From: Naegleria gruberi | Lineage: Eukaryota | Direction: 5' to 3' (one strand) | Length of the DNA stretch: 64,000 nucleotides | Assembly: GCA_000004985.1 (NCBI GenBank) | Contig: GG738862.1 | Shown: one piece after another, positions 2,831 to 63,414 of the stretch | Numbering within the stretch: the first letter of the stretch is position 1 | Layout: the number at the start of each line of letters is the position of its first letter | Position numbers and translations under genes: made by a program | Notes under the pieces: generated by a model | Databases searched by the model: none | What the model was told of the DNA's origin: nothing | Seen by the model: the letters and a program-made list of their open reading frames with translations, nothing else

Positions 2831-3969
2831 ATTATTTTACTAATTTATACATTTTCAAATTGGAAACTCAATCGAAACAATTTAATTGATCAATCTTGAA
2901 ACTTTAGTTGAAAGAATAAAAAGACTACAGCACCACAGGTTCCCAAGTTGTCTCCAACCTCAGTACTGATGTGGCTCGACGATGCTTAACTTCTCAAATC
3001 GGACGGGATGAGGTGCATTCATCGTGATATGGCCGTAGCCATTCTTTATAATAATCTTTCATCATTCAATTCCTTAATCTTTTACTCTTCAATTAATAAT
3101 TTTACTAAAATTGCAAAAGGAAAAAGAGTACGTGACAAATTGTTGCCAAAAGGTTTGTTGTTCTTTCTGGATAGGATTTGAAATTGAAAGAACAAGAAGA
3201 ACATCACTGCTAGATAACATCACGGAGATGTATTTATTGGTGTCTTGATGAAGATTGATGAAGTAGATGATGAATAATTATTGTTGGGAAGACATGTGAA
3301 AATTCAACTTTCCAATCTTTGGAAAATTGCTGAAAAACATTGCAAATCTACCTTTCCTGTTGTGATTTAATAACAAATCTTGTTCGTCCTGTTGAAATTG
3401 AACAAGTTTTCCAGTGCTGTTTTTGGCTGTGAAAATTAACGGTCAAACTTTCATCTTCTCCAACTCTACATCTGCTTGAAGGAAAATTTTGAAACTTTCT
3501 GGTATGATGCTAATTAACATTTAGAACAAGCCTAGGATGTTCTTGTTGCTTTTGATGATGTTCTTCATGATGAAAATATTAAAATTATTAATTTGATGAA
3601 AATATTCTTAAAGTAATACAATCGCACCCATTTGATTGTTATATCATTGCTGTATACTAATGGATGATGTGGGTTTTACTTCTCCAACTCGACAAAATGT
3701 TCCATCAATTTAATCGGTGCCTTTTAAAATTTGTAATTCATGTTGAAATACAACAAAATTAATTCCCACATGTTCCATATTATCCTATCCTCTTGTTCTG
3801 AAAATATTTTCCGCAGTGTCGAAGAATTGCCTTTGAAAATCAGCAATGATGAAAACTGTAGCAGAGTGATGAAATTTTTTCCTCTTTTTTTTTGCTTGCA
3901 CTTTCTTTCATCAAACTTCATTTAATGCAAAAACTCGGCAAAGATTTTCATTTACATATGTAACGGTTT

Positions 3970-39616: not shown

Positions 39617-42600
39617 TTAATTGCCTTGTTTGGTGAATTCCATGTAACCCAATCTTTTTCCTTGTGAATTGAATGGAAAGGAGTTCTTTTTTGAACTATC
39701 GTGTTCGTAAAGTGTAGAATCTGAAAAGTTAGCAGTAAATTTCTTTGTTCCGACTGTAAGTTCCATATATCTTGGATACCTGTCTCTATGGTACTTTCGT
39801 TTTCCTCTCAGCAACTTGGCGCTTGTTTTGGCGTCGAAAATTATAAACTCCTTTCCCGAATTATAAACTGTGACCTTATATTTTGAAGCTTTCTTTTGCT
39901 TAAATGGAGCGTAGGCATGTTCAAGGAAATTATTCTTTGTAGGATTGAAAGAGCCAATATGTTGTTGTCCTGGATCTATTTGAATGAATTCAATTTGTGG
40001 AGAGAGGTTACTATTCATCTTTTTTGGTCTCAGAATTTCCTGAATGTCATTAAGGGAGTACTCAAAGAATGTTGATAATTTGAGGTTATTGGTAATGTAT
40101 TTTACACGTTGATCTATTTTTCTAAATCCCTCACTTGCAGTGTCATATGCAAAAGTAATGTCCACTTGTGAATAGTCATGCTTCTTTGATGGTTCTGTTA
40201 GTGATAAATCTCTTTCTGTACTCTCTATTGTTCTTCTTCCTTTAATCGACACAAGAGCGTCAAATTCGTGAAGTTTTTTAAACGAGTTGATAATCATTAA
40301 AATTCTTGCAAGACCATTAAATTGAGTGATGGTTGGCTTTAGATCACCTAATAAAATAGGATTTACCACCTTCTTAATATCGTAGCCACAAATACCTATC
40401 CTAAACCCTCTCATTGCATACTTTATCAATCTAGTTTCAAAAGTTGTTGATTGTCTATCCACATCCACAATATTACATCTAGTTCTTATTGCTTCTCTAG
40501 CTCTTGGTACGCAAAATACTTGATTTCCATCAAAACCAATGCTGCAACAGGCAATATCAAATCCCATCAACACTTCAGCCTTTTGTTTATCAAAAGATTT
40601 GTAAATTCTCAAAATTACTTAAACTTACTGGTGATTTGTAAATTCTCAATACTATTTGTACAGATTTTTTGTGATATCCTGAACATTTGAAGGTGATAGC
40701 ATGTTGTGTTCTGATAATTAGTAATTCTCCATCCTTAGTATTTTTCTTGAAAGTGTTAAAAATACTAACAATCTTCTTTTCAGCATCTGTTTCTGAAAGA
40801 CCATACAAAAATAAATCAATATCACTCTTTCTCCAAGGCTTATTTTGGAAATACTGTCTAATGGTATATTCTTCTGATGAAGTATTTTGACTCGGGCTAA
40901 ATTTAGTATGCATATCATTTTCTTCATCTGTCACGTAATCATCATCTGATGAATCATTAGTATTTGGAGCTTCTCCATCACTTGCATCGTTATTACCCCA
41001 AAATTTGGAAAGACTTTTTTGTTGTTTCCATAGCTCAGTATTATATAACCTGCCACGTGAAAATTGTGTATCGCTACGAACTTTAACTTTCAAACAGGAA
41101 GCTAAAACTGATCCTCCAGCCACAAAAACATTAGACCAATCCATCTCCTTAAATATTCCATCTGTGAAAATGTCAAATTGTTTCAGAAATTGTTCTCTTG
41201 ACTCTACAAGTTCAGGAGGTGTAGGAATTGTTAAGGATGACTTTTTGGCTAGCTCAAAAGCTTCACAAGGATCCTCAAAGTTGAAAAGTAACTTGCTTGG
41301 TTCCAAAACTGGATCTTTGCACCTGAAAGATTTCCTAATACTGTTGCTAGATCCAAAAATATTAATCAAGTTGATATATGGATCATTGAGGATTACATTT
41401 TCTCTATCAGCAACAAATAAATTTCTCAAAAAGTCCTCATATCTTTTGTATTTCAAATTCTTTTCTCCGATTTCTTCTATTGGATATCTACAAATATCAA
41501 AATATTCTAGAATACCGTTCAATCTGAAATATTTAGCCTCACTATAGACTTGTTTCTTTGTTTCTGTTAGAGTTGGGAAATTATCAATCTTTCCATTCAA
41601 AAGATATTCATGAATAAATTTGAAAATTTCTGGATCTCTATCAATAAATATTTCGATTCAATTTGGTAGAATTCTTTACAATGGTATAGAGCAAACTGTC
41701 AGGTTCTCTCAAAAGCTTGGATTTGGTTAAACTAAACTTGACTCCTCTAACATTGAAAGTGATATCCGTCATGTTCTTGGACATTTCCATTTCTTTCAAG
41801 TCTTCGAATTCCCTGGTTAGTTTTTCTTTTTGGTCCTTGATATATTTCTCAACTTTTTCCTTTTCTTCAAGAGTGATCATGGCAAACTTGGAATAAAATT
41901 CCTCATCCAAAGCTTCGTCGACCAGAGAAGAAGAAACTACTTCGGGTACTTCATCTGGAATATAGATATTCTTTCGTTCTCTAACCTCATTCTTGTAAAT
42001 ATCTATAAGTGATTTTAACTTGATAGTGAGTTTATCAAGCGCAAAAAAGTCTGATTCCTCCAAAAGCTTTTTCAAACGTTTGATATTCCTCTTACTTGCA
42101 TCCTCCCAAATACCAATATGAGTGGTTGAACCAGTTCTCAAGTGTTCCAAAATTATTGGAAAATATTCAGGATCTCTATCAATTAAAATACACCCATTCT
42201 CATCCTTATCGACTCCAAACTGAGATTCCAACATGACACGAAGCATATTATCCCTCTTACACAAAGTAGACATTGTGCTTACAAAAATCTTCCCTCTCAA
42301 ATTAAGTTTCACAATATTTTCCTCTTGTTGGGACAATTCAAATTCTTGTAAAACTTGTTTTCCATGAACATCCATCTCTGCAACCTCTTCTCCATCATCT
42401 CCACCAGAAAAACGCTCCACAAGCAATTCAACTTCCTTCTTCTTCATCTCATTCCGCTTCACTTCATCCTTCAACTCGATCAAACTCTCAACTCTAAATC
42501 TTTCCAAAGCCCGACGTTCCTTCCAAATATTTCTCTTACTTTCCATCTCCTTATCATCAAGAACACGAACATTTTTTTGATCATCATCATCACCCGAAGG

Positions 42601-42669
42601 CTGATTATTATTTTCCTTTCCGTGATGATCTTTTAGAGTTTCGTTTTTACGCTTCTTTGATTGCGGCAT
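39617..42669 (-). CDS. Tandem BTB/T1-domain protein with an N-terminal charged coiled coil and a large C-terminal domain of unknown function (about 1000 aa). It has one 49-nt intron and one apparent 1-nt frameshift.
   Basis: BTB#1: IVKLNLRGKIFVSTMSTL...ILIDRDPEYFPIILEHLRTGS. BTB#2: ITFNVRGVKFSLTKSKLLREPDSLLYTIV... then, after a frame slip near 41645-41655, IFIDRDPEIFKFIHEYLLNGKI. Intron on the minus strand at plus 40580-40628 (gtaagtttaag...aaacaaaag) joins ...VLRIYKSP to AEVLMGFDIACCSIGFDGNQ. The C-terminal region carries FVAGGSVLAS, DIDLFLYG and GFDIACCSIGFDG motifs. Confidence 0.55.
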
Positions 42670-44492: not shown

Positions 44493-47477
44493 ATGACGTT
44501 TTTAACATCACAAAAAAACATGTCTCTGCATCACCTAATCTTGGTTGCTTTGCTCATCTCAGCACAATTTGTTTGCTTTTCACAACAGCAAGCAACCATG
44601 GCGCCAAGTGTCAGCCACATGCTTCTTGCTGGCGGAAACACACCTTTCGGCTATTATGGAAATACGAAAGGTCTCACTCCTTCTTCCATCTTGTGTGGTC
44701 AAGATGATTTCATCTACAGTGTGGACACAAGCGTTGCTGGTATCAAAATAGCCAAATTACTACCTAGCGGCGTTATTTCCTCTTCTTTTGGCACTGACCA
44801 TAGCTCAGCCACAGGAAGAACACTGGGAATGGCTTCGTATCCTGATGGCTCTGCTGCTGGAAAGTATTTTGTCTATGAATTGGATCCTGTAACCAAAATC
44901 CTAACCAAGAATTCAGTGAGTTTGAATGCTAATGGACCTGTTGGAACTATTCCAATGGCTGCAGAGGTGATAAGTGATCCAAGTGGATTGGCTGTCACAT
45001 CAAATGGTGATTTACTATTTTCAGATAGTAAGGCGAATGTTATTCGAAGAATTAACATGACAGCACCTGGATTGGATGGAAATTACACAACAACAATTGT
45101 TGCTGGAGTTGTTGGAGCATCTGGATATGGTGGAGAATCTGTTGTGGCCACAGGAGCAATTTTATCTTCACCAACAGGAATAACTGTATTTGGAAATGCT
45201 TTTTATTTTGCTGAAACTTCTCTTAATATTATTCGAAAGGTTGACATGCAAACTGGATTATTGACAACTGTTGCTGGAATACAAGGTCAAAGTGGTGATA
45301 GTGGAGAGGGTTATTTGGCCACATCAGCATTTCTGAATGGTCCTCAATCAGTTGCCTTTAATAGCAATGGTGATATGTTCATTTCTGACTCAAAAAATAA
45401 CAAAATCAAAAAGGTGTTTTTCAATAATGGAACTATTATCACAATTGCTGGAACTGGAAGTGCTAATTTTACTGGAGATGGATCAAATGCCAAGTTTGCA
45501 ACTTTGAATTTGCCAACATTTATTTCAGTTTCCAATTCAACTGGTGACATTTATATTATTGATTCTCAAAATTACAGAATTAGAAAGATTACTGCAAGTA
45601 CCAATGTTATTTCCACATTTCTAGGCAATGGACTTTCGAGAAATTACGGTGAAAATATTTCAGCTGGTGCAGCTTCTTTCAATTCCCCAGTTGGTTTCAC
45701 ATTTTCTTTGGCTTATCCTAATAATGTGATTTATGTTGCTGATACAGGAAATCATAGAATTAGATCATTCTCTCAATTCTATTCTGGCAGAAATATTGTA
45801 ACTGTGGCAGGTTTACCGAGACCTGGACTTGGAGGTGAGAATTTGCCTGCCTTATCAAGTTCTTTCAATTTTCCATCTAATTTGGTGTTTCATCCAATTT
45901 CAGGAGATTTACTAATAGTCGATACCCAAAATCATAGAATTAGAAGTATGAGCAAGAGTACATCCTTCGTTAAAACAATTGCTGGAACTGGAATAGCAGG
46001 TTACAATGGAGAGGGTATGCTTTCGAATATGACCAAAATGAACTCACCATCTGGCATTGCAGTCCTAAGTACTGGTGAGATTATCTTTGCAGATACATTC
46101 AACAATTTGGTAAGAATGATTAATTTGCAAGGTATCGTTTCAATATTTAGTTCTAATGTTTCTGCACCTGTTGGTATTGCTGTCAATTCAAAAGATGAAA
46201 TTTATATTGGTGATAGTGGTAATCAAAGAGTATTACGCTGTACCAAACAAGGAGTTTGTGTTACATTTGCTGGTACAAAGGGAGTTAAGGGTTATTATCC
46301 AAGCAGTTCCAAAGTTGCTGTTCCAGTTTCTCAAGTTTTATTCACTCAACCAACTTACATTGCACCTAATAATGCAGGAGATGTTTATGTGGTGGATAGT
46401 GGAAATGGAAGAATTGTTAAAATTGCAAGAGATGGAAAAGCTGCTAATGTTTTGAATAATTTGGTCAATCCAGGAAATATTGCATTCAATGAATATGAAC
46501 AAAGTCCAATCTTTATCAGTTCTGATATAGTTCATGAGTTAAAGTCCACATGTAACTCCAATTATGTGCTCTCCATTTATGATTATGAATGTAATTTGAT
46601 AACATGTTCTGGAGTTGCCTTGACAAACAGTTCTGTATGCTCCTCGCACGGAGTTTGTGCCTCAATGGACACATGTATCTGCAACACGGATGATACCTAT
46701 TTTGGAAAGAATTGTGAGTTTAAACTATGTAATGGAGCTCAAATTTCATCCACTCAACCATGTGTAGCTCAACAATCACCATCCACAAAGGAAATCAAAG
46801 TTGAAACAATTTTAATCTCTTCATTGAATGCAAAGAATGTTACTTTTGACAAGTTTGAAACCATTCAAGTAACCTTCCCTTCTTCAATCGTTTCTCAATT
46901 GAATAGCACAGGTTCAGTTTCAGGCAATCTCAACATTGACCTCGTCAGTTCAGTTGTAAATCAAACTTTGGACAATTCACTCAATAGCTTATCAGAAAAC
47001 AATACAATTTTCCTAGTGAGCTCCATTGTGACAATTTCACTATTTGACAGAGACACTGGAAAGGAAATTTCAGTCAAGCAACTCAGTGAACCAATCAATA
47101 TTCAAATGAAATCCATCTCTGTTCCGAATTCCCTCCTTGAAAACCGTGAATTCTCCTTTGTGTGCATGTACCTAGACATTTCCTCCAACACTTGGAAAAC
47201 CGATGGTGTTGAAACCATTATTCAAAACTTACAAAACACCACAGAAACATTGACCTTCTCCACCCTATGCAGAACCACACACTTGACCAGTTTCGCAGTC
47301 ATTGATCCAACCTATAAAAAAGCCTCAAAATCTGATTCAAACAATAGCAATCTCCTCGATCTTGGCACCATCATTGGAATTGCTGTAGGAGGTGGTGCAG
47401 GTCTCTTAATTGTTTGCACCATGATGGTTCTCGCCATTGTTGTATTGGTTGTTTGCTGTGTGAAAAAGAGAAAGTAA
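44493..47477 (+). CDS. Type I membrane protein with an NHL-repeat beta-propeller ectodomain, EGF-like Cys module(s) and a single TM helix (994 aa), no kinase
   Basis: Signal peptide (MSLHHLILVALLISAQFVCFS). Twelve or more NHL-type repeats (...VADTGNHRIRSF..., ...IVDTQNHRIRSM..., ...YIGDSGNQRVLR...). EGF-like CSSHGVCASMDTCICNTDDTYFGKNCEFKLC. C-terminal TM IIGIAVGGGAGLLIVCTMMVLAIVVLVVCC followed by KKRK and the stop. Confidence 0.8.
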   Translation: MTFLTSQKNMSLHHLILVALLISAQFVCFSQQQATMAPSVSHMLLAGGNTPFGYYGNTKGLTPSSILCGQDDFIYSVDTSVAGIKIAKLLPSGVISSSFGTDHSSATGRTLGMASYPDGSAAGKYFVYELDPVTKILTKNSVSLNANGPVGTIPMAAEVISDPSGLAVTSNGDLLFSDSKANVIRRINMTAPGLDGNYTTTIVAGVVGASGYGGESVVATGAILSSPTGITVFGNAFYFAETSLNIIRKVDMQTGLLTTVAGIQGQSGDSGEGYLATSAFLNGPQSVAFNSNGDMFISDSKNNKIKKVFFNNGTIITIAGTGSANFTGDGSNAKFATLNLPTFISVSNSTGDIYIIDSQNYRIRKITASTNVISTFLGNGLSRNYGENISAGAASFNSPVGFTFSLAYPNNVIYVADTGNHRIRSFSQFYSGRNIVTVAGLPRPGLGGENLPALSSSFNFPSNLVFHPISGDLLIVDTQNHRIRSMSKSTSFVKTIAGTGIAGYNGEGMLSNMTKMNSPSGIAVLSTGEIIFADTFNNLVRMINLQGIVSIFSSNVSAPVGIAVNSKDEIYIGDSGNQRVLRCTKQGVCVTFAGTKGVKGYYPSSSKVAVPVSQVLFTQPTYIAPNNAGDVYVVDSGNGRIVKIARDGKAANVLNNLVNPGNIAFNEYEQSPIFISSDIVHELKSTCNSNYVLSIYDYECNLITCSGVALTNSSVCSSHGVCASMDTCICNTDDTYFGKNCEFKLCNGAQISSTQPCVAQQSPSTKEIKVETILISSLNAKNVTFDKFETIQVTFPSSIVSQLNSTGSVSGNLNIDLVSSVVNQTLDNSLNSLSENNTIFLVSSIVTISLFDRDTGKEISVKQLSEPINIQMKSISVPNSLLENREFSFVCMYLDISSNTWKTDGVETIIQNLQNTTETLTFSTLCRTTHLTSFAVIDPTYKKASKSDSNNSNLLDLGTIIGIAVGGGAGLLIVCTMMVLAIVVLVVCCVKKRK

Positions 47478-50258: not shown

Positions 50259-50879
50259 ATGAGTGAAGAAATCATCGTGATCTTGAAACTGGATCATCAC
50301 ATCGGATCTGGAGTTTTAACTAATTTTTATAGGACCACTGCCAAGTTAGAGAGTAAACTAATCAACTATTCACAATATCTTTCATTATTCAAAGGTGAAT
50401 TAAAGATCCACACACGTCCAAGATTATTATTCAGATCGAGCAGGGATGGATTTTCTCTTTCTGATTTTCATTCACGATGTGATAATCAATTCAAACTTGT
50501 AATTATTGTAAAATCACAAGAGGGTGATTTATTTGGAGGATACACAACTAAGAATATCAATACAATGCCAAAATCTACATATGACTCTGTGGGGGATAAT
50601 GATTCATTTACTTTTCAATTTGATGAAGAAAAATTGCATATTTTCAGATTGTTGCCTTCGAGGTTGGAAACTGCCTTGCATCGATATGAGTTAACTTATC
50701 TTTTTGCCTTTTCTTGGAGTTTCTGGATTTGTGAAGATGCCAATACTAAAATATCTGGTTCACATGAGTCAACAACTGAAAATATACTTCCAGAATGTAG
50801 ATTACCAGTTGGAAAAAAGTATTTTGGTGGATTGACTTTTCGTGTTGAGGATATGGAAGTTTTCAAGATTGAGGAATAG
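50259..50879 (+). CDS. Cytosolic TLDc-domain protein (206 aa, no signal peptide)
   Basis: LLFRSSRDGFSLSDFHSRCDNQFKLVIIVKSQEGDLFGGYTTKN... This is the TLDc core. It lacks the N-terminal hydrophobic segment of the other three TLDc genes. Confidence 0.75.
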   Translation: MSEEIIVILKLDHHIGSGVLTNFYRTTAKLESKLINYSQYLSLFKGELKIHTRPRLLFRSSRDGFSLSDFHSRCDNQFKLVIIVKSQEGDLFGGYTTKNINTMPKSTYDSVGDNDSFTFQFDEEKLHIFRLLPSRLETALHRYELTYLFAFSWSFWICEDANTKISGSHESTTENILPECRLPVGKKYFGGLTFRVEDMEVFKIEE

Positions 50880-51243: not shown

Positions 51244-54200
51244 ATGCGCAGACTGCTCGTTTTGCTGAGTTTATTCTTGTTTATTCAGCTTGGTTATTCG
51301 AAACTGGTTGAGTATAGATGGGAACCTATCAGTGGTGTGGCCAAATTTTCAACATCTTTTGCCAATGCATACCAATCCGAAAATCAGCCAGAAATTATAT
51401 ATTTTCAGGAATCTTCTTTTCGTATATTTAAATATAATCAAACTTCTGGTGATCGAAAATTATTGCTTGGTTGTTATACTAGTAGTATTTGTATGCCCGA
51501 GAATTCGGTTTCTACTGGTGATATCAATAGTGCAACTACCATTGATCTCACCATTACTGCTTTTCATGTGGACGAAACTTCATACGAAACTATTTATGTT
51601 GCTACCCACAAGCAGATCTACAAATTTCAAAATGGAAATTTAATTCTTCTTTCCAAGCAGTTAGGAGCTTCCACTACCATTCAGGAAGGTTCAGCACTTT
51701 CGAATACCACTTTCACCAAAATTGGTTCAATTTCTAGGGATCCTATTGGAAACTTGTATATTTGTGAGGAATCAAACCTATATAGAGTTGATTTAAACGG
51801 AATTATTAATTTTATGAGTTTGCGAGGTGGATTTACGCTAACCAAGAAAGATGGCTTTTCAAACGAAACAATTTTTTCAACTTATATTTCGAATATAAGA
51901 TATCACAAGGGATACTTGTATGGATGTGATTTATTCTCAATATTCAAGATTAATTTACAAACATGGTGGATGACTGTCATTCAAGGGAGACAATTTGATG
52001 GAAATACCAATGATGGACCTGCTTTGGATGCTAAAGTGAATTTTGTGTATGGATTTGCAGTTTCTCCTCTTGATGATTCAATTTATCTTACAAATTTAGG
52101 ATATTGGAAAGTGATTAATCAAACTACTGGGAATATTTCGACCATTTTGTTGTTCGATTCATCCATTGCATCACCAACTTTTTTCTCACCAAATCATATT
52201 TTAAATGGACAAACTATAATGAAAACTGATTTGTCCCTTAAACAAGTTTATCCAATTTTAACTATTAATGGAGCTATTAATGATGGTACTAATGTGCAAA
52301 ATAGAGTGTTTGATTCAATAGCTGCTATTGCGTTCAATCAATCAAGTAATGAACTATTAATTGCTGATTCTAATTTTGGATTTAATTTGAAGAAAGTGGA
52401 TTTGACAACTGGAACTGTGTCTACCATTACATTAATAGACAAATTTTCAAATGTTTCATGTTGGAATTCTTCTGAAGAGACTAATGAGAGTTTTATCCGT
52501 TCAAAATTCATTCCCAATGCATTACAACTCAGAAATTCTGATTTATACGTTTCATCAACTCAGATGATTCAAAAAATAGATGTATCTAAAGGAAATGGTT
52601 GTTTCTATGCTGGTTCCATTACTGGTGATAGATTAAGAAAGGAAGGTCCTCCGTCCTCAATAATTTTGAAAAATCCAACAGGAATATTCTGTCTCGATTC
52701 ATTTTCTACGATTTATATTGCAGATACTGATAATCATAGAATTCTCAAATATATCTCAAAAGAAATGGTAGAGGTTATTGCTGGTATTGGAGTTCAGGGA
52801 TTTTCTGGTGATGGAGGTTTGGCAATTAATGCTCAATTAGACAAACCTCATTCAGCTCATTTTGATAAGATTTCTGGGAATATTTACATTGCTGACAGTG
52901 GAAACCACAGAATTAGAATGATATTTCCTAATGGAACAATAACCACAATTGTTGGAAGTGGTACTAATGGATTTAATGGAGATGGATTGAATCCATTAGA
53001 AACTCATCTCAACTTACCAAAATATGTATTCTATGATTCTGAAATTTTATACATTTCAGATTCTTTCAATCATAGAGTCAGATCTTTTTTCAATGGAACT
53101 ATAAGTACAGTATTAGGAAATGGAATTACTGGATCTAGACTTGTTCCCAATAATCCTAAAGAAACTCAATTGAATTCACCATTTGGATTGTTTGTTTCAA
53201 ATTATAATCTCTTTGTAGCAGGTAAGTTTCTCTTTCCTACTAGTTAGGATACATTAATTTATATTAGATACTTATAATCACAGAATATTGTGTGTTTATT
53301 ATGATTCCAAGGTTGAAATCATTGCTGGAACAGGTGAATCAGGTAAGTTTCTAATACATTAATGAATATTGATGAGAATAGGATATAATGGTGATGGTAT
53401 GGTTGCAACACAGGCAAAACTCTTCCTACCAAGTATGGTATCTGTAGTTGACCAATCTATTATTTATATTGCTGATACTGCTAATAACAAAATTCGTATA
53501 ATTTCTAGAGGTGTTATTTCATCCTTCTATGAAAAAATAATATCTCCAATTGGTTTATGCCCAGAAGTGTCATATTTTGCTTATACAGCAGGAAATTTAG
53601 TTTTATCAAATGGTCGAACGGAACCACTTGTAGGAGGTATTGCAGATGGATTGAATGTCTTTTATGCTAATGTAAATCCCACAAGAATTCTGTTAACTAC
53701 AGACAACAAGATGGTCATTTCGGAATCTGAAACTAATAGGATTAGAATGATTGATAATATTAAGGGAGGTATCAAGACAATTTCTGGAACAGGTAAATTT
53801 GGATTTAGTGGAGATGATAATGCTGCAAACCTTGCCATGCTAGCTTCTCCAACTGGATTAGCACAAGGAGTAGATTCCAATTTGATTTATTTTGCTGATT
53901 CAAGTAATAATAGAATCAGAGTAGTAACTGGTGCCTCAACTTTGACATCATTAATAATGACAAAAGCTGGAACAGGAGATCAATCATATTCTTTTCCTGA
54001 TTTACCGATAGATCCACTGAAGGCCAAGTTCAATACTCCAAGATTAGTGTCTAGGTTAAGCAATGGAAATATTCTGATTGGAGACACTCTCAACTATCGA
54101 ATTCAGATGATTTCGAATACTGAAAATGGCGAGAAATTACGAACCATAGTCAATGTAGCAGACGCATATGGAAGTTCAGTAATTACAGACATGGTTGTGA

Positions 54201-56010
54201 CCGAGCAAAATATAATTCTCGTCTCCACTATGGATGCAATTTACAACCTCTTGCCCCTTTGTGATAAGGGGTATCAACTTGTGAATAACAATACTGAATG
54301 CCTTCCTATTTGTTTTGGATCTCTTGGGCAATTTTCCTGTTCAGGCAGAGGCAAATGTGTAGAGCCAGATAATTGCTCATGCCTTCAGGGACTCTACACA
54401 GGAAGTCAATGTGAAATTCCAATATGTAATGGAATTGCTGCAAATGAATCAAGCGTTTGTTCTTATATGAATGGTACTTGTGGAATCAATAATCAGTGTA
54501 CATGCAAGGATGGATTTTATGGCAACATGTGTGAGAATCCAATTTGTTTCTCACAAATAGTTGGAGAATCATGCGGAGGTAGTCTCAGAGGAACTTGTAT
54601 TCATAAGGATAGATGCTCATGCAATCAACATTTTACTGGAGAGCGTTGTGAATTAAGAATGTGTTCAGGAAAAAGTGAGAATGACACTAAAGTGTGTAAT
54701 GGACATGGTAAATGTGTGGAAAATGGAAGATGTACCTGTGACGCTTTATATTCTGGTTTAGATTGTTCAGATATGAGTCAAATATATGCCTTAGGTATTA
54801 GTGCTTCTATTGTTCTATTGATATTGACTGTATTGGCTGTGGTTTCTATTATATTAGGATTAGTTGTTCATAGAAAGAATAGAAAGGAAAGAAAAATATT
54901 GGAAACTGAGCTATCTCTTGATGAGAGGTTGCTATCAACTACTGACGCATACGAAATGTCTATTTCTTCTGCTTCTAGTAATATTCATTCAACTAGTGAT
55001 GATCCTTCCTCTTTTGTTATTCCTCTCCATAAAATTGGAATGGATAAACCAATCAAGGTAAGTTTACTTTCGAATATAACAATTATTTAACAATTTTAAT
55101 ACAGAGACTGGGAGAAGGTGGAATAGGAAGTGTATTCATGTCAAAATATAATGGAATGATCGTTGCAGTTAAAGTATTTGATTTAAATAACTTGAACATT
55201 TCGGAAGAAGATTTCAAAAATGAGGCTATTCTATTAAGCAAACTTCGTCATCCTAATATTATCAATTTTTACGGAGTTTCTACATCACCAACGAAACGTT
55301 ACATAATTATGGAATGTTTGGATCAGAGTATGGAGAAGGTGATTGCCAAATTAGAGTTTAAACAATTAACTCTCTCATTGGATCAAAAATTGAAAATGAT
55401 TCTTAATATTGCTAATGGAATTGAATATTTACACAGCTTGAAACCAAGAAAAATCATCCATCGTGATCTAAAACCACAAAATATTCTATTGGATTCGAAT
55501 GGAAATTGTAAATTGTGTGATTTTGGATTGAGCAAATCCATTTCACAAGCAACTGTTTCTGCACTTACTAATCAGTTGGGTACACATTTCTACATGAGTC
55601 CAGAAATGTTTGATATTAATGCTGTTGATCCTACCTATGCTACTGCAGTTGATATTTACAGTTTCTCAATAATCATGTGGCAATTATTATTCGAAATCAA
55701 AGATCCCTACCTCTTTAAATCGTCAGAATTATTCCACAAATTGAAAACGAAATCACTTGAACAAGTCTCATCCTATCAGCTTACCAAAATGATTTGTGAA
55801 AATAATTATAGACCTTCTATTCCATTCCAATCTATCAACGAATGTACAGATTGGTGTACCGAATTTATGAAGTCAGAACTAGGAAATACTTCAACAATTT
55901 TCAAATTGGGCCAATTGATTAAAGAGTGTTGGCAAGCAGATCCAAAACTCAGACCAAGTATTGAACAAGTTGTAGATCAATTACAATCACTTGAGAATGA
56001 GCTTGTATAA
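51244..56010 (+). CDS. Receptor protein kinase with four exons: signal peptide, NHL-repeat block, second NHL block, EGF-like repeats, TM helix and a TKL-type Ser/Thr (or dual-specificity) kinase domain
   Basis: Exon 1 51244-53221 (MRRLLVLLSLFLFIQLGYS, NHL repeats such as ADTDNHRILKY and ADSGNHRIRMIF). Intron 53222-53267 (46 nt). Exon 2 53268-53342 (DTYNHRIL...IAGTGESG). Intron 53343-53381 (39 nt). Exon 3 53382-55057 (NHL repeats, EGF-like CSGRGKCVEPDNCSCLQGLYTGSQCEIPIC..., TM LGISASIVLLILTVLAVVSIILGLVV then HRKNRKERK). Intron 55058-55104 (47 nt, gtaagttta...aatacag). Exon 4 55105-56010 carries the kinase subdomains LGEGGIGSVF, VAVKV, HRDLKPQNILLD, DFGLSK and SPE. All donors are GTAAGT and phases are consistent. 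Confidence 0.8.
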
Positions 56011-56420
56011 TGAAACGTTGGAAGTTGTCACAATTTGGCTTATTAAAAGTTTTTGTAAATCTTCTGGAAGTTGGTGAATCTCTTGGCTTTTTTACACTCA
56101 ATATCCTTGTTGACCAAACTCAATTTCTTAGAGTCAATGAGGTAAAAGATCAAGTATAGCTTCATGTTGATGTTTCTCATTCTGGAAGGAATGTACTGTA
56201 CAAGACCGTAATCATGTTGTATGAGATAACAATGTCTTATTTGAAGTGCGTAACTCCTTTAACATGATAACTTGTCGATACCAAAACATTCCATTTAAAC
56301 CACCAAATACGATACGTTGACAACCCTTGACAAGATACAGCCAAAACAATGAAAGATTCCCTTAAAAAAGAATAGGATATCTCTGCTGCTACAGTGGAGA
56401 CAAAGAAAACAAAGAAAAAA

Positions 56421-57511
56421 ATGTCAACAGCATTCAACAGTACCTATATGAATGTCACCAATGATTTCTTTCCACCTGTGTGGACCAGCAGTACATCAAT
56501 TGGTAACAGTGTCTTGTATCTCTCTCTGTACTCAATTTACTTGATTACTTTTATTATTCTATTCTCAAGGATAAATGGACGAATTAAGATCTTGAACGAA
56601 AGTGCAAAATCCAAATCACGGAATAAAGTGATAAAGAGGAACCACATTATCATATTTGCCTTCGTTCTGATTCTAATCCTTGTTGAAATGATTAATTTGA
56701 TTTTACGAATTGTTGGAGATGGATTATCGCTCAATGCAAGAATGAAACTGGACAATAATATGCAAGTTCTCACCAGTGAATATCTTGCCATTTGGATAGT
56801 GAATGGATTTTCAACTTTATTCATGTATTCCAATTTCATCATGCTCTTTTTGATAATGTTTGTTGTTCAAATGATATTGTAAGTAATTCATCTGAAATAG
56901 TCAACTGAAAAATTGAAAGTTGGAGAACAGCCATGATTATGAGATCCATTTCAAAATTTGCATTTCGAAGAATTAAAGAAATATCCACAATATCCATTAT
57001 CATCTCTGCAATTCTCATACTTACATGCAATATCTTTTTAGCTATTACCATACCCTTGACCAAAATGGGAATAATAGATAATAATGTCTACACCATTCCA
57101 AATTTTATTCTGCTACTCATTGTTGTTATATTATTTATCAAAGATATGCTTGTTGTTTTGATTTCTGGTTTCATGGTCATTCGAACCATTAAGAAATCCT
57201 TAGAAAAGAATAACAAATCAAAGAATGACAAGCTGGAGAACCCATTCATTGTCATAGTGTCCCTAATGATTGGTTTAGTATTGTGCATTTTCCTTCAAAT
57301 CTTTGCAGGGGTATTGGCTGGTGTTTTGCTTAGTACGGAGCTAAAACACTTAAAGTTTCTGTGGCACTTTTTTAATGGATTGGGAATAATTGTATTTGCC
57401 ATATTGAATTTGTGTTTATTCTATCCATTATTTGTACAAACACAAATGGTGTTTGAGGAATTACATATTGATGATGTCAAGTCAACTGTATCAAGTCAAG
57501 TACAATCTTGA
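56421..57511 (+). CDS. Seven-TM (GPCR-like) membrane protein, two exons
   Basis: ATG at 56421 (MSTAFNSTYMNV...). Seven hydrophobic helices run across the two ORF-track pieces. A 47-nt intron at 56879-56925 (gtaagtaatt...gttggag) joins ...VVQMI to L-TAMIMRSISKF in frame. No family motif recognised. Confidence 0.55.
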
Positions 57512-57649
57512 GCCATGTAATCAGAAAAATTTCTTGTTTGTAAGAAACAATCAAGAATCAAGAGAGGTTGGTGAATTGACGGCTTGGGATGACTTTCAGA
57601 TCAGGAATAAACTGACTGGCAACAAACTTGGAAAGCTCTAAATTTTGTG

Positions 57650-60600
57650 GAATGGATAATCCTTTGTTAACCTGTCATTCTCTCTCCGCACATATTCAGA
57701 TCTTACAACTTATCATTGTGATGAATGATAGACTGATCTACATGTGTTAAAAACGTGTAATATGCTTGATATAACCAATAAAGTTTAGAATTTTCCAGAA
57801 ATACCCTTTCGCCAAGATTTCATTTTGCCATATTTGGGATCTCCACAGAAACCACTATTGAAATATAAAATGTACAGATATGTGAGAAACATAATGTGGT
57901 GAAACTGATCAATAACTCGTTGAAATGACTGATATGGATTGCAAACTATTGTTTACTTGTCATGTAATTGTGACTAGACAGTGTCAATTCCACTAAAGTA
58001 TTTCATACTGAATTGACATCATCAAATACACTTCTATACATCATATATATCATATAGAACTAGTTTTAATATTTGATATTGTGAACTGACTCTGTTGGAT
58101 ACCATCTCTATAAATATAGCTAGATGAAAAGTGTCAATATTTGTTTTCACATACATGTTACTATGGAGAGTCCTCATTATATCATCTAAATAGGTATTTC
58201 TACTTTCAGTGGAATTGACTTTAGAAATAAATATTTAGTTGACTTGAAGATATTGAGCAGGGAATATGAAACTTTCTCAGATTGTTCTCCTCATCTAGGG
58301 AAGTGTATTCATATTTTATAATAGTATGATATTTTGTAAAATGACTGAGATAGAATGTAATCTATGAATTGAAAGTTGACTTTTTGATAGATTGTTATTA
58401 ATATCATAGTGAATTCAATTCTGACAGACTGAAATTGATACTATATGTATAATAGTATGATTAAACATACCTGGTAAAGTTACACGATGGTTGGATGTAC
58501 TTTCATTGAGATAGAGTGTACACTTGGATATAAGCACTATTGACATTGAACATTAACTGACTGACTAATTGAAAGTAATACGAATTGTTTCCAAACTACT
58601 ACCAGTGTATTAAATAGATGTATACTCTGTGTGGTATCAATTCTAGACTGATTGTACGTGTAATGAGTGAGTTGGAGTATAATCTATGACATCATGTCAA
58701 ATTTCTATAGTAAATTGATAGAGTTGATATGGGGTTGGTTAGGATTCAGAGTTGATTTATTTGGGTTATTTAAGAGATTACTTATTGAAGATTCATATCA
58801 TTGATTATATTTCTTATCATCTATAAATGATGTAAATTTGATGTTTTCATTTCTTGTATTGATAGATATATAAAGGTCAGGTCAGTACTAACTTTTGAAA
58901 TATGGAGTTGGGTTGGTGGGGTTTGGGTGAGTTTTATACACTTTCATACAATAGAGTGATATTGAAATGTACCCTTTGATATTTCTGGATGGGTAGCATG
59001 ATTTAGTGATGATTCCGACAATAAAAATCATATATTGTTCATATAATTATCAAGATATTGTATAATTTATTAAATATAAAGTGGGTAATATTGAATATTC
59101 TTTGTAGGAGCGGAAGCACTTATTCTTGTCAGTTGGAGTCAGTATTGTATTAAGGTTCATTTAAGGAATCTTAAAAAAATACAATAACAACTCACCTGCA
59201 TCAACATCATCAAGTATATCATCTATATTGAATATAAAGCAACAGCAAGAATGTATGGAGTTGATTCAACATGATTATTGGATTGGAGAGATGGCAAAAA
59301 TATTACTATTATTGTATTTGTCAAGTTGGAAGTACCCTCAGGATCATCAGCGAGGTTTCCTCTTCATCTCTTCTTGTTAGAGAGGTTTTTCATCCACAAG
59401 ATGGTCATCTTCTTCAATTGAAGAGGTTGCTTTATTATTAAGCACTGAGAGAAGCGTTTTTAAATTTTATTTTGATGAAATAAATCAAAATTTATTACGC
59501 ACAACACATCAAGAACAACAACAGCAACATGCTGATACACCATCATCATCACTGGGTGAATTGGCCATCATTGTTGTATAATTTCTTGGAATTTATTGGA
59601 TTAACAGTAAATTTTGGAATTACTCTCCTATTGAAGATGGAACATCAGCAACATCACCAAGATGATATTTAATTGGATAGTATTGTTTTCAGGAGTGGTT
59701 TCACGCTTTTTGTGGGCTCTTTCAACATACCATCATAAGAATGGTCATCATCTTGTTGAGGGAAGATGTTCAACCTTGTTTTGGAAGGTAGAATATCTTA
59801 CCACCACTCTATTCTCCTATTTTGATTGGATTGGTGGAGGTGCCACCACCTCTTCATACATTACATCAAGTTGAATCTTCCCTCCATCATTTGATGGGGG
59901 AGCAACTTCTCCCTTCCATATTGTTTAATAAATTATTGTTATTATCATATAATGATACAATTATTGTTGTTGTTTGTTGTTAATTGTTGTTCTTAATAGA
60001 AACCGACAATTCCCCCTTAATAAGTTATACAACCACTTGGTTATTCGTATGAATTATTTCTAGATAATAATGCTATAGCACTGTTGGTTCAGTGGTTGTA
60101 TGTTGGAATGTCAATTAAGGGACGAGTGATCGATTCAGGGTTTTGGGTTTGGGTGGGTTTGGGTTTGGGTTAGACGAAAACCCATCGACGACTAACGAAC
60201 GGCCAATATTGAGTATCTGAATTTCATATATGTCATTCAAATATTAATAAAAAGCTTATATTGTAACGAAGCAGTCATATCTCAAAGTAGTTATAGAGAT
60301 AATCAACTCTGATAAAATAAAAGTTAGGTTTTCCCGGTATTACTCTATGAATATGGAGATCGCCGGTCTGGATTAAATATATGTAGTAGACATAAATATG
60401 AGTTGACTATATTCGCAAATAAATTTGAAAAATATCATTGCGTTCAAAAATAATAAGGCACTGCCTGAAATATTAAGGTTTTTACCCTAGTAGGTCTAAA
60501 ATTTCAAAGTTGGGTTGAAATTTAAATTTTAATATATTGTAGATATATATATGAATAGATGATATTATGAATTAATCATGTTGAATCGGTGTATTTAACA

Positions 60601-62934: not shown

Positions 62935-63322
62935 GGTTTGGGTTTGGGTTGGGTTTGGGTTTGGGTTTGGGTTGGGTTTGGGTTTGGGTTTGGGTTTGGG
63001 TTTGGGTTTGGGTTTGGGTTTGGGTTTGGGTTTGGGTGTTGGGTTTGGGTTTGGGTTTGGGTTTGGGTTTGGGTTTGGGTTTGGGTTTGGGTTTGGGTTT
63101 GGGTTTGGGTTTGGGTTTGGTTTGGGTTTGGGTTTGGGTTTGGGTTTGGGTTTGGGTTTGGGTTTGGGTTTGGGTTTGGGTTTGGGTTTGGGTTTGGGTT
63201 TGGGTTGGGTTTGGGTTTGGGTTTGGGTTTGGGTTTGGGTTTGGGTTTGGGTTTGGGTTTGGGTTTGGGTTTGGGTTTGGGTTTGGGTTTGGGTTTGGGT
63301 TCGGGTTTGGGTTTGGGTTTGG
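62935..63322 (+). repeat. Telomere-like hexamer array, about 64 GGGTTT units (TTTGGG in telomere convention) with occasional GGGTT or GGGTGTT variants. The G-rich strand points to the right end.
   Basis: Read directly from the sequence. The array abuts a 50-N gap at 63323-63372. Confidence 0.95.
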
Positions 63323-63372
63323 NNNNNNNNNNNNNNNNNNNNNNNNNNNNNNNNNNNNNNNNNNNNNNNNNN
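63323..63372. other. Assembly gap (50 N)
   Basis: Run of n immediately after the telomere-like array. Confidence 1.
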
Positions 63373-63414
63373 ACTGAATTATGCAATGTTCACAAAATGT
63401 CTGAAATTAGAACC

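What the first reader, a model, noticed from the sequence alone, without database searches (positions are those of the whole stretch)
51244..56010. Receptor kinase with a double NHL beta-propeller and EGF ectodomain, paired with a kinase-less NHL-EGF-TM relative 4 kb upstream (44493-47477)
Exon structure and phases link a signal peptide, about 20 NHL repeats in two blocks, EGF-like Cys modules, one TM helix and a canonical kinase domain (HRDLKPQNILLD, DFGLSK) into a single receptor. I know NHL propellers as ligand-binding domains of intracellular TRIM-NHL proteins and a few extracellular proteins (for example teneurin-like ones). An NHL-ectodomain receptor kinase is not a textbook architecture. 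The neighbouring gene has the same ectodomain logic but ends right after the TM helix, so it looks like a decoy or co-receptor partner.
Basis: partly seen in the sequence, partly recalled or inferred. Interest (0 to 1): 0.6.

Follow-up and report, generated by a model that had tools for sequence, protein, structure and literature searches.

The report
Naegleria NHL-propeller/EGF receptor kinase gene
This is a real four-exon Naegleria gene for a single-pass membrane receptor with stacked NHL beta-propellers and four EGF modules outside and an active-looking Ser/Thr (TKL-like) kinase inside; it belongs to an unstudied Naegleria receptor family that public proteomes already hold as 'hypothetical' or fragmented entries, and the upstream 'partner' is an unrelated-by-descent adhesion-type protein with a GPS cleavage domain.

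Summary
Exons 51244-53221, 53268-53342, 53382-55057 and 55105-56010 join in frame, through GTAAGTTT...AG introns of 46, 39 and 47 nt, into a 1544-aa protein. It has a signal peptide, about 18 propeller blades (8-10 recognisable as NHL), four 6-Cys teneurin-type EGF modules, one TM helix and a complete kinase domain.

There is no RNA evidence. Comparative evidence supports every junction:
- The N. gruberi model D2VH83 (92% identical) uses junctions 1 and 2.
- A 58%-identical homologue shares introns 1 and 3 and lacks intron 2.
- A paralogue has NHL, EGF, TM and kinase in one uninterrupted ORF.

The kinase is TKL-like, not a tyrosine kinase.

The same architecture exists, uncharacterised, in N. 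lovaniensis (XP_044551476.1, XP_044553469.1) and N. gruberi (D2VPM5). No paper in the library I searched describes it.

The upstream gene (44493-47477) is indeed kinase-less. However, it carries a GAIN-B/GPS domain that the kinase gene lacks. It is only 29% identical, resembles other NHL-EGF proteins more closely, and is separated by unrelated genes. The decoy/co-receptor pairing is therefore unsupported.

Verdict: a real, moderately interesting lineage-specific receptor kinase, and a variant of a known kind.

The parts
51244..53221 (+). Receptor kinase exon 1 (aa 1-659 plus 1 nt): signal peptide and blades 1 to about 12
   Evidence: ORF and GTAAGT donor at 53222. N. gruberi D2VH83 is 92% identical and colinear.
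53268..53342 (+). Receptor kinase exon 2 (75 nt, aa 660-684), which completes an NHL core motif: ...NLFVA|DTYNHRIL...
   Evidence: The same junctions are used in the N. gruberi model P0241. Intron 1 is at the same position in L003.
53382..55057 (+). Receptor kinase exon 3 (aa 685-1243): the remaining NHL blades, four EGF modules, the TM helix and the juxtamembrane region
   Evidence: The L003 homologue is continuous across junction 2 ('NSPGYNGDG').
55105..56010 (+). Receptor kinase exon 4 (aa 1244-1544 plus stop): the kinase domain from the Gly-rich loop onward
   Evidence: The first in-frame ATG (55138) lies after the Gly loop LGEGGIGSV. Paralogue P0125 and N. gruberi P0124 read straight through the junction (...MDKPIK|RLGxGG).
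51244..51303 (+). Signal peptide (MRRLLVLLSLFLFIQLGYSK)
   Evidence: Hydropathy segment aa 4-23. No dedicated signal-peptide predictor was available.
51376..54253 (+). Beta-propeller region, aa about 45-975 (spans introns 1 and 2): about 18 four-stranded blades, probably three six-bladed propellers. aa 45-460 is degenerate; aa 467-951 is canonical NHL.
   Evidence: Pfam NHL and TEN_NHL. My own repeat HMM found 8 strong repeats. AlphaFold2 on orthologue P0241 shows 13 blades by aa 728, with pLDDT above 90 for aa 490-720. Foldseek's top hits are teneurin-like protein 9ifo and the NHLRC2 and SOQ1 NHL propellers.
54260..54766 (+). Cys-rich region, aa 978-1146: four 6-Cys EGF modules of teneurin/tenascin type, preceded by a Cys pair
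   Evidence: Pfam EGF_2, EGF_Teneurin and EGF_TEN. Cys spacing.
54782..54868 (+). Transmembrane helix (aa 1152-1180), followed by the basic stop-transfer sequence HRKNRKERK
   Evidence: Hydropathy peak of 3.25.
55052..55977 (+). Protein kinase domain, aa 1242-1534 (spans intron 3): GEGGIGSV, VAVK, HRDLKPQN, DFG, SPE, CW-x5-P-x2-RP. It is TKL-like.
   Evidence: Pfam Pkinase 169 bits and PK_Tyr_Ser-Thr 154 bits. The nearest solved kinases are CTR1, ZAK, TAK1, CERK1, DLK, Roco4 and BRAF.
44493..47477 (+). Upstream kinase-less gene (994 aa, single exon): signal peptide, about 11-12 NHL blades, EGF-like Cys region, GAIN-B/GPS stalk, TM helix and a KKRK tail
   Evidence: No kinase sequence lies downstream.
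47001..47321 (+). GAIN-B/GPS domain of the upstream gene (aa 837-943), with the THL|TSFAV cleavage-type motif at 47280-47300
   Evidence: Pfam GPS scores 22.3 bits on the whole protein and 26.6 bits on the segment; the cutoff is 22.5. A profile of nine homologous segments hits the GAIN domains of ADGRL3 (E=2e-11), ADGRG6, ADGRG1, latrophilin-1, CELSR1 and BAI3.
47361..47462 (+). Transmembrane segment of the upstream gene (aa 957-990)
   Evidence: Hydropathy peak of 3.27.

Best explanation
The locus is one four-exon gene of a Naegleria species close to N. gruberi. It encodes a type I single-pass receptor Ser/Thr kinase.

Shown:
- A cleavable-looking signal peptide.
- An ectodomain of about 950 aa made of about 18 NHL-type blades, most likely three six-bladed propellers. 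The N-terminal one is highly diverged.
- A membrane-proximal stalk of four teneurin-type EGF modules.
- One TM helix with a basic cytoplasmic flank.
- A Ser-rich juxtamembrane segment.
- A kinase domain with every catalytic motif intact, closest to the TKL group.

Inferred mechanism: the propellers bind an extracellular or luminal ligand, such as a protein or glycan on prey, matrix or other cells. The rigid EGF stalk holds the propellers away from the membrane. Ligand-driven clustering brings the kinase domains together for trans-phosphorylation of the Ser/Thr-rich activation loop, which starts a cytoplasmic Ser/Thr phosphorylation signal.

The gene belongs to a genus-wide family in which different propellers (NHL, and in other protists RCC1 or Kelch) and EGF arrays are shuffled onto related TM-kinase modules. 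The gene lies about 7 kb from a (TTTGGG)n telomere-type array.
For: Gene model:
- The exons join in frame through three short AT-rich GTAAGTTT..AG introns.
- N. gruberi D2VH83 (P0241, 92% identical) is spliced identically at junctions 1 and 2.
- The L003 homologue (1560 aa, 58% identical overall, kinase 80%) is colinear from signal peptide to kinase. It shares the positions of introns 1 and 3 and lacks intron 2.
- Paralogue P0125 on L001 carries NHL, EGF, TM and kinase in one uninterrupted ORF.
- The Gly-rich loop is encoded upstream of the first ATG of exon 4, so exon 4 cannot stand alone.

Domains: Pfam, hydropathy, repeat HMM, AlphaFold2 blades and Foldseek matches to NHL propellers with 2.4-2.6 A rmsd.

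Kinase: the best solved relatives are TKL kinases, led by CTR1 at 110 bits. The catalytic loop is the Ser/Thr type, HRDLKPQN. Naegleria has 0 group-A tyrosine kinases (PMC4342544).

Family:
- N. lovaniensis XP_044551476.1 has a signal peptide, NHL, EGF, TM and a kinase that is 44% identical over the full domain.
- XP_044553469.1 and N. gruberi D2VPM5 share the architecture.

Location: the telomere-type array is at 62935-63322.
Against: - No transcript, protein, localisation or kinase-activity data exist for this gene. The single-transcript model rests on comparative and splice-signal evidence only.
- The reference N. gruberi annotation does not show the full-length protein. The orthologue model stops at aa 836 and the paralogue kinases are annotated alone.
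- The number of propellers is inferred. The AlphaFold2 model had mean pLDDT 66.7 and was poor for aa 20-100 and after aa 730, and the full ectodomain could not be submitted.
- The margin for TKL over other kinase groups is modest (110 bits against 92 for CDK1). No phylogeny was made.
- The ligand, and plasma-membrane versus endomembrane localisation, are unknown.
Confidence: 0.78

Rival explanations
1. Two genes. An NHL-EGF-TM membrane protein ends at the stop after ...KPIKVSLLSNITII (55090), and a separate cytosolic kinase is translated from the ATG at 55138. This is the arrangement the fragmented N. gruberi annotation suggests.
For: ORF 53369-55090 has its own in-frame stop, and ORF 55138-56010 starts with ATG. 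The N. gruberi models P0122 (270 aa) and P0124 (303 aa) are kinase-only.
Against: - A protein starting at 55138 would lack the Gly-rich ATP-binding loop. That loop is encoded in frame just upstream at 55108-55134.
- The 47-nt gap has canonical GTAAGT..CAG ends.
- P0125 reads through the same junction in a single ORF, and P0124 contains MDKPIK|RLGSGG contiguously.
- The L003 homologue conserves the intron position.
- N. lovaniensis and N. gruberi D2VPM5 have full-length models.
Confidence: 0.04
2. The fused protein is real but is not a cell-surface ligand receptor. It sits on phagosomal or vesicular membranes with the propellers in the lumen, or the NHL propellers are catalytic (lactonase- or lyase-like). 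The kinase would then report on or regulate an organelle process.
For: Weak sub-threshold Pfam matches to Vgb_lyase and SGL appear for related NHL proteins, including the upstream gene (Vgb_lyase only). Many bacterial homologues are auto-annotated as 'sugar lactone lactonase YvrE'. From memory, vesicle-associated receptor-like kinases exist in Dictyostelium.
Against: The lactonase and lyase matches fall below the curated cutoffs. The best matches are the binding-type NHL domains of teneurin-like protein, NHLRC2 and SOQ1. The 16 N-glycosylation sequons and the EGF stalk fit a secretory-pathway ectodomain, but they do not distinguish surface from lumen.
Confidence: 0.13
3. The kinase gene and the upstream kinase-less NHL-EGF-TM gene form a functional receptor and decoy or co-receptor pair, kept together in the genome.
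For: Both genes are on the + strand, 3.8 kb apart. They share the NHL-then-EGF order and align colinearly through the NHL/EGF junction.
Against: - They are only 29% identical. The upstream protein scores higher against bacterial NHL proteins and N. lovaniensis P0250 than against the kinase's ectodomain.
- The upstream protein has a GAIN-B/GPS stalk that the kinase gene lacks.
- Unrelated genes lie between them.
- NHL-EGF proteins are numerous in Naegleria, and a third NHL gene lies in the same window. Proximity could therefore be chance.
- Conservation of the neighbourhood could not be tested, because the related contigs are too short.
Confidence: 0.08
4. The protein is mainly an adhesion molecule, and its kinase domain is catalytically dead or vestigial.
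For: The teneurin-like EGF and NHL modules are adhesion-type modules.
Against: All catalytic motifs are intact: GxGxxG, VAVK, the alphaC Glu, HRD, DFG and SPE. The kinase is also the most conserved part of the protein, at 80% identity against 43-54% for the propellers.
Confidence: 0.04

Closest known systems
Uncharacterised Naegleria paralogues: N. lovaniensis XP_044551476.1 (C9374_001816) and XP_044553469.1 (C9374_014037); N. gruberi D2VPM5 (NAEGRDRAFT_70916). The truncated orthologue model is N. gruberi D2VH83 (NAEGRDRAFT_68122).
   Same: They share the NHL blades, teneurin-type EGF, single TM helix and related kinase. XP_044551476.1 is 44% identical over the whole kinase domain, including the C-lobe insert. 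D2VH83 is 92% identical over aa 1-817.
   Different: The numbers of blades and EGF modules differ. D2VPM5 adds a GPS stalk and has a different kinase subfamily (HRDIKPSN). None has a name, a paper or a known function. The reference orthologue model lacks the EGF, TM and kinase parts.
Mycobacterium tuberculosis PknD (receptor Ser/Thr kinase with an NHL beta-propeller sensor)
   Same: A six-bladed NHL propeller outside, one TM helix and a Hanks-type Ser/Thr kinase inside (PMC3322341).
   Different: PknD is bacterial and has the opposite polarity, with the kinase N-terminal. It has a single propeller, no EGF modules and no signal peptide. The kinases are not specifically related.
Plant CRINKLY4/ACR4 receptor kinases
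   Same: Type I topology: signal peptide, beta-propeller, Cys-rich domain, TM helix and an active TKL-group kinase (bioRxiv 10.1101/2020.08.10.245050).
   Different: CRINKLY4 has one seven-bladed WD40/RCC1-like propeller with intra-blade disulfides and a TNFR-like Cys-rich domain instead of EGF. Its kinase belongs to the plant RLK/Pelle clade.
Teneurins and teneurin-like proteins
   Same: These give the best Pfam and Foldseek matches for both the NHL and the EGF modules: TEN_NHL, EGF_Teneurin, and 9ifo_A at 35% identity over 311 columns. In both, the EGF modules are membrane-proximal and the NHL propeller is distal.
   Different: Teneurins are type II proteins with a YD shell, a Tox-GHH domain and no kinase. 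None of those features is present here.
Metazoan YWTD-propeller/EGF receptors (LRP5/6, LRP4, megalin; ROS1/Sevenless among kinases, from memory)
   Same: Several six-bladed propellers combined with EGF modules in the ectodomain of a single-pass receptor. Foldseek lists LRP6, LRP2 and LRP4 as multi-propeller matches, although at about 20 A rmsd, so only the domain type is shared.
   Different: Those blades are LDLR class B (YWTD), not NHL. ROS1 and Sevenless are tyrosine kinases. There is no sign of common descent, so this is convergent domain shuffling.
Adhesion-GPCR and PKD1-type GAIN/GPS domains (relevant to the upstream gene only)
   Same: The profile matches GAIN subdomain B plus GPS of ADGRL3, ADGRG6, ADGRG1, latrophilin-1, CELSR1 and BAI3. 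The HL|T motif and the C1-C3 Cys pair are conserved.
   Different: The upstream protein has one TM helix rather than 7 or 11 and lacks the C2 and C4 cysteines. The helical GAIN subdomain A was not detected. Cleavage is untested.

Membership tests
Type I single-pass receptor protein kinase | N-terminal signal peptide and exactly one internal TM helix, with the kinase on the basic (cytoplasmic) side | tested here: met
   Hydrophobic segments occur only at aa 4-23 and aa 1148-1183. HRKNRKERK follows the TM helix. This was judged by hydropathy only, without SignalP or TMHMM.
Type I single-pass receptor protein kinase | Ectodomain, TM helix and kinase are encoded by one transcript | tested here: inconclusive
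   No RNA data are available. Comparative evidence is strong: identical splicing in D2VH83, conserved or absent introns in L003, and a single ORF in P0125.
Type I single-pass receptor protein kinase | A catalytically competent kinase domain | tested here: met
   Pkinase scores 169 bits. GEGGIGSV, VAVK, HRDLKPQN, DFG and SPE are all present. Activity itself cannot be tested here.
NHL-repeat beta-propeller (Pfam PF01436) | NHL HMM match above the curated cutoff | tested here: met
   78.1 bits against a cutoff of 20, and TEN_NHL 66.5 against 27.1. There are 8 strong repeats at aa 467-951.
NHL-repeat beta-propeller (Pfam PF01436) | Six-bladed propeller fold | tested here: met
   The AlphaFold2 model of the 92% orthologue has regular four-stranded blades, with pLDDT above 90 for aa 490-720. 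Foldseek matches the NHLRC2 NHL domain (TM-score 0.79 on the target, rmsd 2.7 A, 353 columns), teneurin-like protein and SOQ1.
   About 18 blades were counted, which fits three six-bladed propellers.
TKL-group kinase | Closest similarity to TKL kinases, plus HRDLKxxN and the C-terminal CW...RP motif | tested here: met
   The top solved matches are CTR1, ZAK, TAK1, CERK1, DLK, Roco4, TNNI3K and BRAF. The motifs were located. The margin over CDK1 is modest (110 against 92 bits).
TKL-group kinase | Placement inside the TKL clade in a kinome-wide phylogeny | not tested
   No tree was built.
Receptor tyrosine kinase | Tyrosine-kinase catalytic loop (HRDLAARN or HRDLRAAN) and membership of the TK group | tested here: not met
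   The loop is HRDLKPQN. A published survey reports 0 group-A tyrosine kinases in N. gruberi (PMC4342544, Table 1).
Teneurin | Type II topology, YD/RHS shell and a C-terminal Tox-GHH domain | tested here: not met
   The protein has a signal peptide and type I topology. Pfam finds no YD, RHS or Tox-GHH hit. Only the EGF and NHL modules resemble teneurin.
PknD-type bacterial sensor kinase | N-terminal kinase, TM helix, C-terminal NHL propeller | tested here: not met
   The domain order is reversed, and EGF modules and introns are present.
GAIN/GPS-containing protein (upstream gene) | GPS HMM match and similarity to GAIN subdomain B | tested here: met
   GPS scores 26.6 bits on the segment against a cutoff of 22.5, but 22.3 bits on the whole protein. 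All 9 homologous segments match. The profile hits ADGRL3 at E=2e-11 and other aGPCR GAIN domains.
GAIN/GPS-containing protein (upstream gene) | Autoproteolysis at HL|T/S | not testable with these tools
   The motif THL|TSFAV is present. The C2 and C4 cysteines are absent.
Adhesion GPCR or polycystin-1 (upstream gene) | A 7TM or 11TM domain after the GPS | tested here: not met
   There is a single TM helix and a 4-residue tail.

The most novel reading that the evidence does not exclude
Naegleria, a discoban protist far from animals and plants, has built its own cell-surface sensing system. It shuffles teneurin-like NHL propellers, EGF arrays and, in some members, an autoproteolytic GAIN/GPS stalk onto single-pass Ser/Thr kinases. 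N. gruberi D2VPM5 has NHL, EGF, GPS, TM and kinase in one annotated protein. On this reading the window's two genes are the kinase-only and GPS-only versions of one toolkit. The GPS-bearing kinases would couple adhesion-GPCR-style shedding or mechanical activation to a kinase instead of a 7TM domain, a receptor logic I could not find described in the literature I searched.
Probability: 0.15. Interest if true: 0.7.

Novelty: new variant of a known kind. Interest (0 to 1): 0.38.

Why it matters
Receptor kinases with lineage-specific ectodomains are how many eukaryotes sense prey, mates and surfaces. Almost nothing is known about such receptors in Heterolobosea, the group that includes the brain-eating N. 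fowleri.

This locus gives a clean, full-length example of a Naegleria family that combines 'animal-like' extracellular modules (teneurin-type NHL and EGF, and GPS in relatives) with a TKL-like kinase.

It also shows that the reference N. gruberi annotation splits or truncates these genes, so domain-architecture surveys will have undercounted them.

The family offers three things:
- Candidate receptors for prey or host recognition.
- A test case for convergent assembly of propeller-EGF receptors, comparable to LRP/ROS1, CRINKLY4 and PknD.
- Through its GPS-bearing members, a way to ask whether GAIN autoproteolysis can gate a kinase.

It does not overturn any principle. It is an additional, unstudied variant.

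Tried and rejected
- A full-length protein search was swamped by bacterial multi-NHL proteins and showed no full-length relative. I switched to separate searches with the kinase region and the N-terminal region.
- Exact look-ups of the upstream protein and of N. gruberi P0122 found no contig.
I folded the 92% orthologue P0241 instead. Its truncated end and first 100 residues were low-confidence.
- AlphaFold2 on the whole upstream protein gave no usable model for the C-terminal 350 aa. The GPS claim therefore rests on profile searches. A single-sequence PDB search of that region found nothing.
- A metagenome scan with exon 1 found no relatives, so conservation of the neighbourhood could not be tested.
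- Comparison with the 97.4%-identical contig L002 gave too few substitutions to say much about selection: 15 synonymous and 13 non-synonymous codon changes.
- Literature searches for Naegleria with NHL, receptor-like kinase, kinome, transmembrane kinase, or EGF plus kinase found no description of this family. The N. gruberi genome paper is not held in the library.
- Rejected: a tyrosine-kinase (RTK) reading, teneurin membership, and a hidden kinase exon downstream of the upstream gene. A tblastn search of the whole window found only the one kinase.

Full report
**Source organism and setting**

The window is AT-rich (about 33% GC), gene-dense, and has very short GTAAGT...AG introns. The kinase region's best named match is a Naegleria gruberi protein. 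The N-terminal 480 aa are 92% identical to N. gruberi NAEGRDRAFT_68122 (D2VH83). A metagenome contig, L002, is 97.4% identical in DNA to window 53400-57842.

A (TTTGGG)~65 array at 62935-63322 runs into a 51-N scaffold gap. TTTGGG is the candidate telomere repeat reported for N. gruberi (PMC3622300). The window therefore comes from a close relative of N. gruberi, and the gene lies about 7 kb from a putative chromosome end.

**Check of the observation**

The ATG at 51244 opens MRRLLVLLSLFLFIQLGYSK. The ORF runs to a GTAAGT donor at 53222. A 75-nt exon (53268-53342) and a 1676-nt exon (53382-55057) follow. The last exon (55105-56010) ends in a stop codon. The introns are 46, 39 and 47 nt long, all start GTAAGTTT, end AG, and have 19-26% GC. 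The joined CDS is 4635 nt and encodes 1544 aa with no internal stop.

Pfam finds NHL (78 bits), TEN_NHL, EGF_2, EGF_Teneurin and EGF_TEN, and Pkinase (169 bits, aa 1242-1534). Hydropathy gives exactly two hydrophobic segments. One is the N-terminal signal sequence. The other is aa 1148-1183, followed by HRKNRKERK. Sixteen N-x-S/T sequons lie in the ectodomain.

**Is it one gene?**

No transcript data were available, so I used comparative evidence for each junction.

- Junctions 1 and 2: the JGI model of the N. gruberi orthologue (P0241) reads ...NLFVADTYNHRILCVYYDFKVEIIAGTGESGYNGDGMVATQ..., exactly as my splicing predicts.
- A second full-length homologue, which I reconstructed on contig L003, has five exons and 1560 aa. 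It is 58% identical overall and 80% identical in the kinase. It has introns at the same positions as window introns 1 and 3. It is continuous where the window has intron 2, and it has two extra introns elsewhere.
- Junction 3: paralogue P0125 on contig L001 carries NHL repeats, four EGF modules, the TM helix, the juxtamembrane region and the kinase in one uninterrupted ORF. N. gruberi P0124 contains MDKPIK|RLGSGG contiguously.
- The glycine-rich loop (LGEGGIGSV, 55108-55134) lies upstream of the first in-frame ATG of exon 4 (55138). A stand-alone kinase gene would therefore lack its ATP-binding loop.

I put the two-gene alternative at about 4%.

**Anatomy**

A repeat HMM built from the clear repeats finds eight strong NHL repeats (aa 467-951) and two weak ones (aa 350-457). 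The N-terminal 460 aa have almost no sequence relatives outside Naegleria. The exception is a weak full-length match to a bacterial NHL protein.

AlphaFold2 on the orthologue P0241 nevertheless shows regular four-stranded blades throughout: 13 blades by aa 728, with pLDDT above 90 for aa 490-720. With the five further repeats up to aa 975, the ectodomain has about 18 blades. Three six-bladed propellers are therefore more likely than the 'double' propeller proposed. The full spliced ectodomain could not be submitted to the predictor, so domain packing is inferred.

Foldseek places the confident part next to a teneurin-like protein (9ifo, 35% identity) and to the NHL propellers of SOQ1 and NHLRC2.

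Cysteine spacing gives four 6-Cys EGF modules (aa 995-1146) directly before the TM helix.

The kinase has all catalytic motifs. Its nearest solved relatives are TKL kinases: CTR1, ZAK, TAK1, CERK1, DLK, Roco4 and BRAF. It has the Ser/Thr-type loop HRDLKPQN and the CW...RP motif. A published survey found no group-A tyrosine kinases in N. gruberi (PMC4342544). The kinase is thus TKL-like and not an RTK. The margin over CDK1 is modest, and I built no tree.

**The family**

An exhaustive HMMER search with P0125, followed by Pfam scans and name look-ups, shows that the architecture is already present in public proteomes, without a name or a function.

- N. lovaniensis XP_044551476.1 (1239 aa) has a signal peptide, NHL, EGF, TM and a kinase 44% identical over the whole domain.
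- N. lovaniensis XP_044553469.1 has NHL, EGF, TM and kinase.
- N. gruberi D2VPM5 (2807 aa) has a signal peptide, 13 NHL repeats, 8 EGF modules, a GPS-like motif, a TM helix and a kinase.
- N. gruberi D2V423 has an EGF-only ectodomain plus a kinase.

Related TM-kinase modules carry other propellers in unidentified protists: RCC1 in P0377 and Kelch-like repeats on contig L004.

In the N. gruberi reference, the orthologue of this gene stops at aa 836 with an aberrant tail. Two paralogue kinases are annotated alone. The family is therefore under-represented in architecture surveys.

Seven full-text searches found no paper describing it.

**The upstream gene**

ORF 44493-47477 encodes a signal peptide and then NHL blades: 9 confident blades in AlphaFold2 at aa 163-644, plus 2-3 weaker ones. 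An EGF-like Cys region, a Ser/Asn-rich stalk, a TM helix and a KKRK tail follow. No kinase-like sequence occurs elsewhere in the window, so the gene is genuinely kinase-less.

Pfam GPS scores 22.3 bits on the whole protein, just under the 22.5 cutoff. I therefore aligned the stalk with eight homologous juxtamembrane segments from large Naegleria-type EGF proteins.

- The profile hits the GAIN/GPS regions of ADGRL3 (E=2e-11), ADGRG6, ADGRG1, ADGRF1, latrophilin-1, CELSR1 and BAI3.
- All nine segments match Pfam GPS. The window segment scores 26.6 bits.
- The protein keeps the C1-C3 cysteine pair and THL|TSFAV, and it lacks C2 and C4.

It is an adhesion-type, single-pass GPS protein, not a truncated copy of the kinase gene.

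The two ectodomains are 29% identical and colinear through the NHL/EGF junction. However, the upstream protein scores higher against bacterial NHL proteins and N. lovaniensis P0250. Desaturase-like and TLDc genes lie between the two genes. A third NHL gene, with a B-box, lies at 37346-39560. The 'paired decoy/co-receptor' idea is not supported. It cannot be excluded either, because no related contig was long enough to test synteny.

**Mechanism**

Shown: the topology, the domains and the intact catalytic motifs. The kinase is the most conserved part of the protein (80% identity, against 43-54% for the propellers).

Inferred: the propellers bind a ligand, the EGF stalk acts as a spacer, and clustering triggers trans-phosphorylation of the Ser/Thr-rich activation loop.

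Alternatives are a luminal or enzymatic role for the propellers (about 13%) and an adhesion-only pseudokinase (about 4%).

**Comparison with known systems, and verdict**

The gene works like other propeller-bearing receptor kinases. PknD is bacterial, has an NHL sensor and has the opposite polarity (PMC3322341). CRINKLY4 is a plant receptor with a WD40-like propeller plus a Cys-rich domain (bioRxiv 10.1101/2020.08.10.245050). The gene also resembles metazoan propeller-EGF receptors. It is a member of none of these, and it is neither a teneurin nor an RTK.

It is a real, full-length member of an unstudied Naegleria receptor-kinase family, and so a new variant of a known kind. The most novel lead lies just outside the finding itself: a GAIN/GPS stalk coexists with a kinase in the paralogue D2VPM5.

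Interest: 0.38.

Noticed in passing
window 62935-63322 (N gap at 63323-63373): A (TTTGGG)~65 tandem array with the G-rich strand on +, ending in a 51-N scaffold gap. TTTGGG is the candidate N. gruberi telomere repeat (PMC3622300). The receptor-kinase gene is therefore about 7 kb from a putative chromosome end, and the 58-63 kb region is gene-poor and AT-rich.
   Followed up: partly
window 47001-47321 (upstream gene, aa 837-943): A GAIN-B/GPS domain with a THL|TSFAV motif sits directly before a single TM helix. This is an adhesion-GPCR or PKD1-type autoproteolysis module on a single-pass NHL-EGF protein. It keeps the C1-C3 cysteine pair and lacks C2 and C4.
   Followed up: yes
N. gruberi D2VPM5 / NAEGRDRAFT_70916 (P0254, aa about 2440-2807): One annotated protein combines a signal peptide, 13 NHL repeats, 8 EGF modules, a GPS-like motif (CRSSHLSVFSV), a TM helix and a kinase domain truncated at the model's end. 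I did not find a GPS stalk on a receptor kinase described in the literature I searched.
   Followed up: partly
N. gruberi reference models D2VH83 (P0241), D2VBV8 (P0122), D2V8X1 (P0124): These look like fragments of receptor-kinase genes. D2VH83 ends at aa 836 with an aberrant tail (VKKLGLTFRLGLGLGMAKT). D2VBV8 starts after the Gly-rich loop. D2V8X1 starts at the MDKPIK that ends exon 3 in the window gene.
   Followed up: partly
window 37346-39560 (+): A two-part ORF encoding a B-box zinc finger followed by NHL repeats (NHL 83.8 bits in the second part). It is a TRIM-NHL-like intracellular protein with no RING domain detected.
   Followed up: partly
L004 (JGI Ga0247389_10050571, 8.2 kb, 48% GC) and protein P0377: An unidentified protist contig carries three kinase genes. 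Two have teneurin-type EGF, a TM helix and a kinase, and are preceded by Kelch-like propeller ORFs. P0377, from another JGI contig, has an RCC1 propeller, EGF, TM and kinase. Propeller-EGF receptor kinases therefore extend beyond NHL and beyond Naegleria.
   Followed up: partly
window 60-1919 (+): A 619-aa ORF combining teneurin-type EGF modules (sub-threshold EGF_TEN match) with a C-terminal TLDc domain. A second, small TLDc gene lies at 50259-50879.
   Followed up: no
window 5072-14299 (-): A 3075-aa uninterrupted ORF with DUF6606, DUF3638 (272 bits) and DUF3645 domains.
   Followed up: no
window 2922-3040 (-): A 5S rRNA gene (Rfam RF00001, 105 bits) lying among protein-coding genes.
   Followed up: no
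window 15191-17629 (-) and 41641-42669 (-): Two BTB/POZ (BTB_2) genes. The first is fused to a long pentapeptide-repeat region.
   Followed up: no
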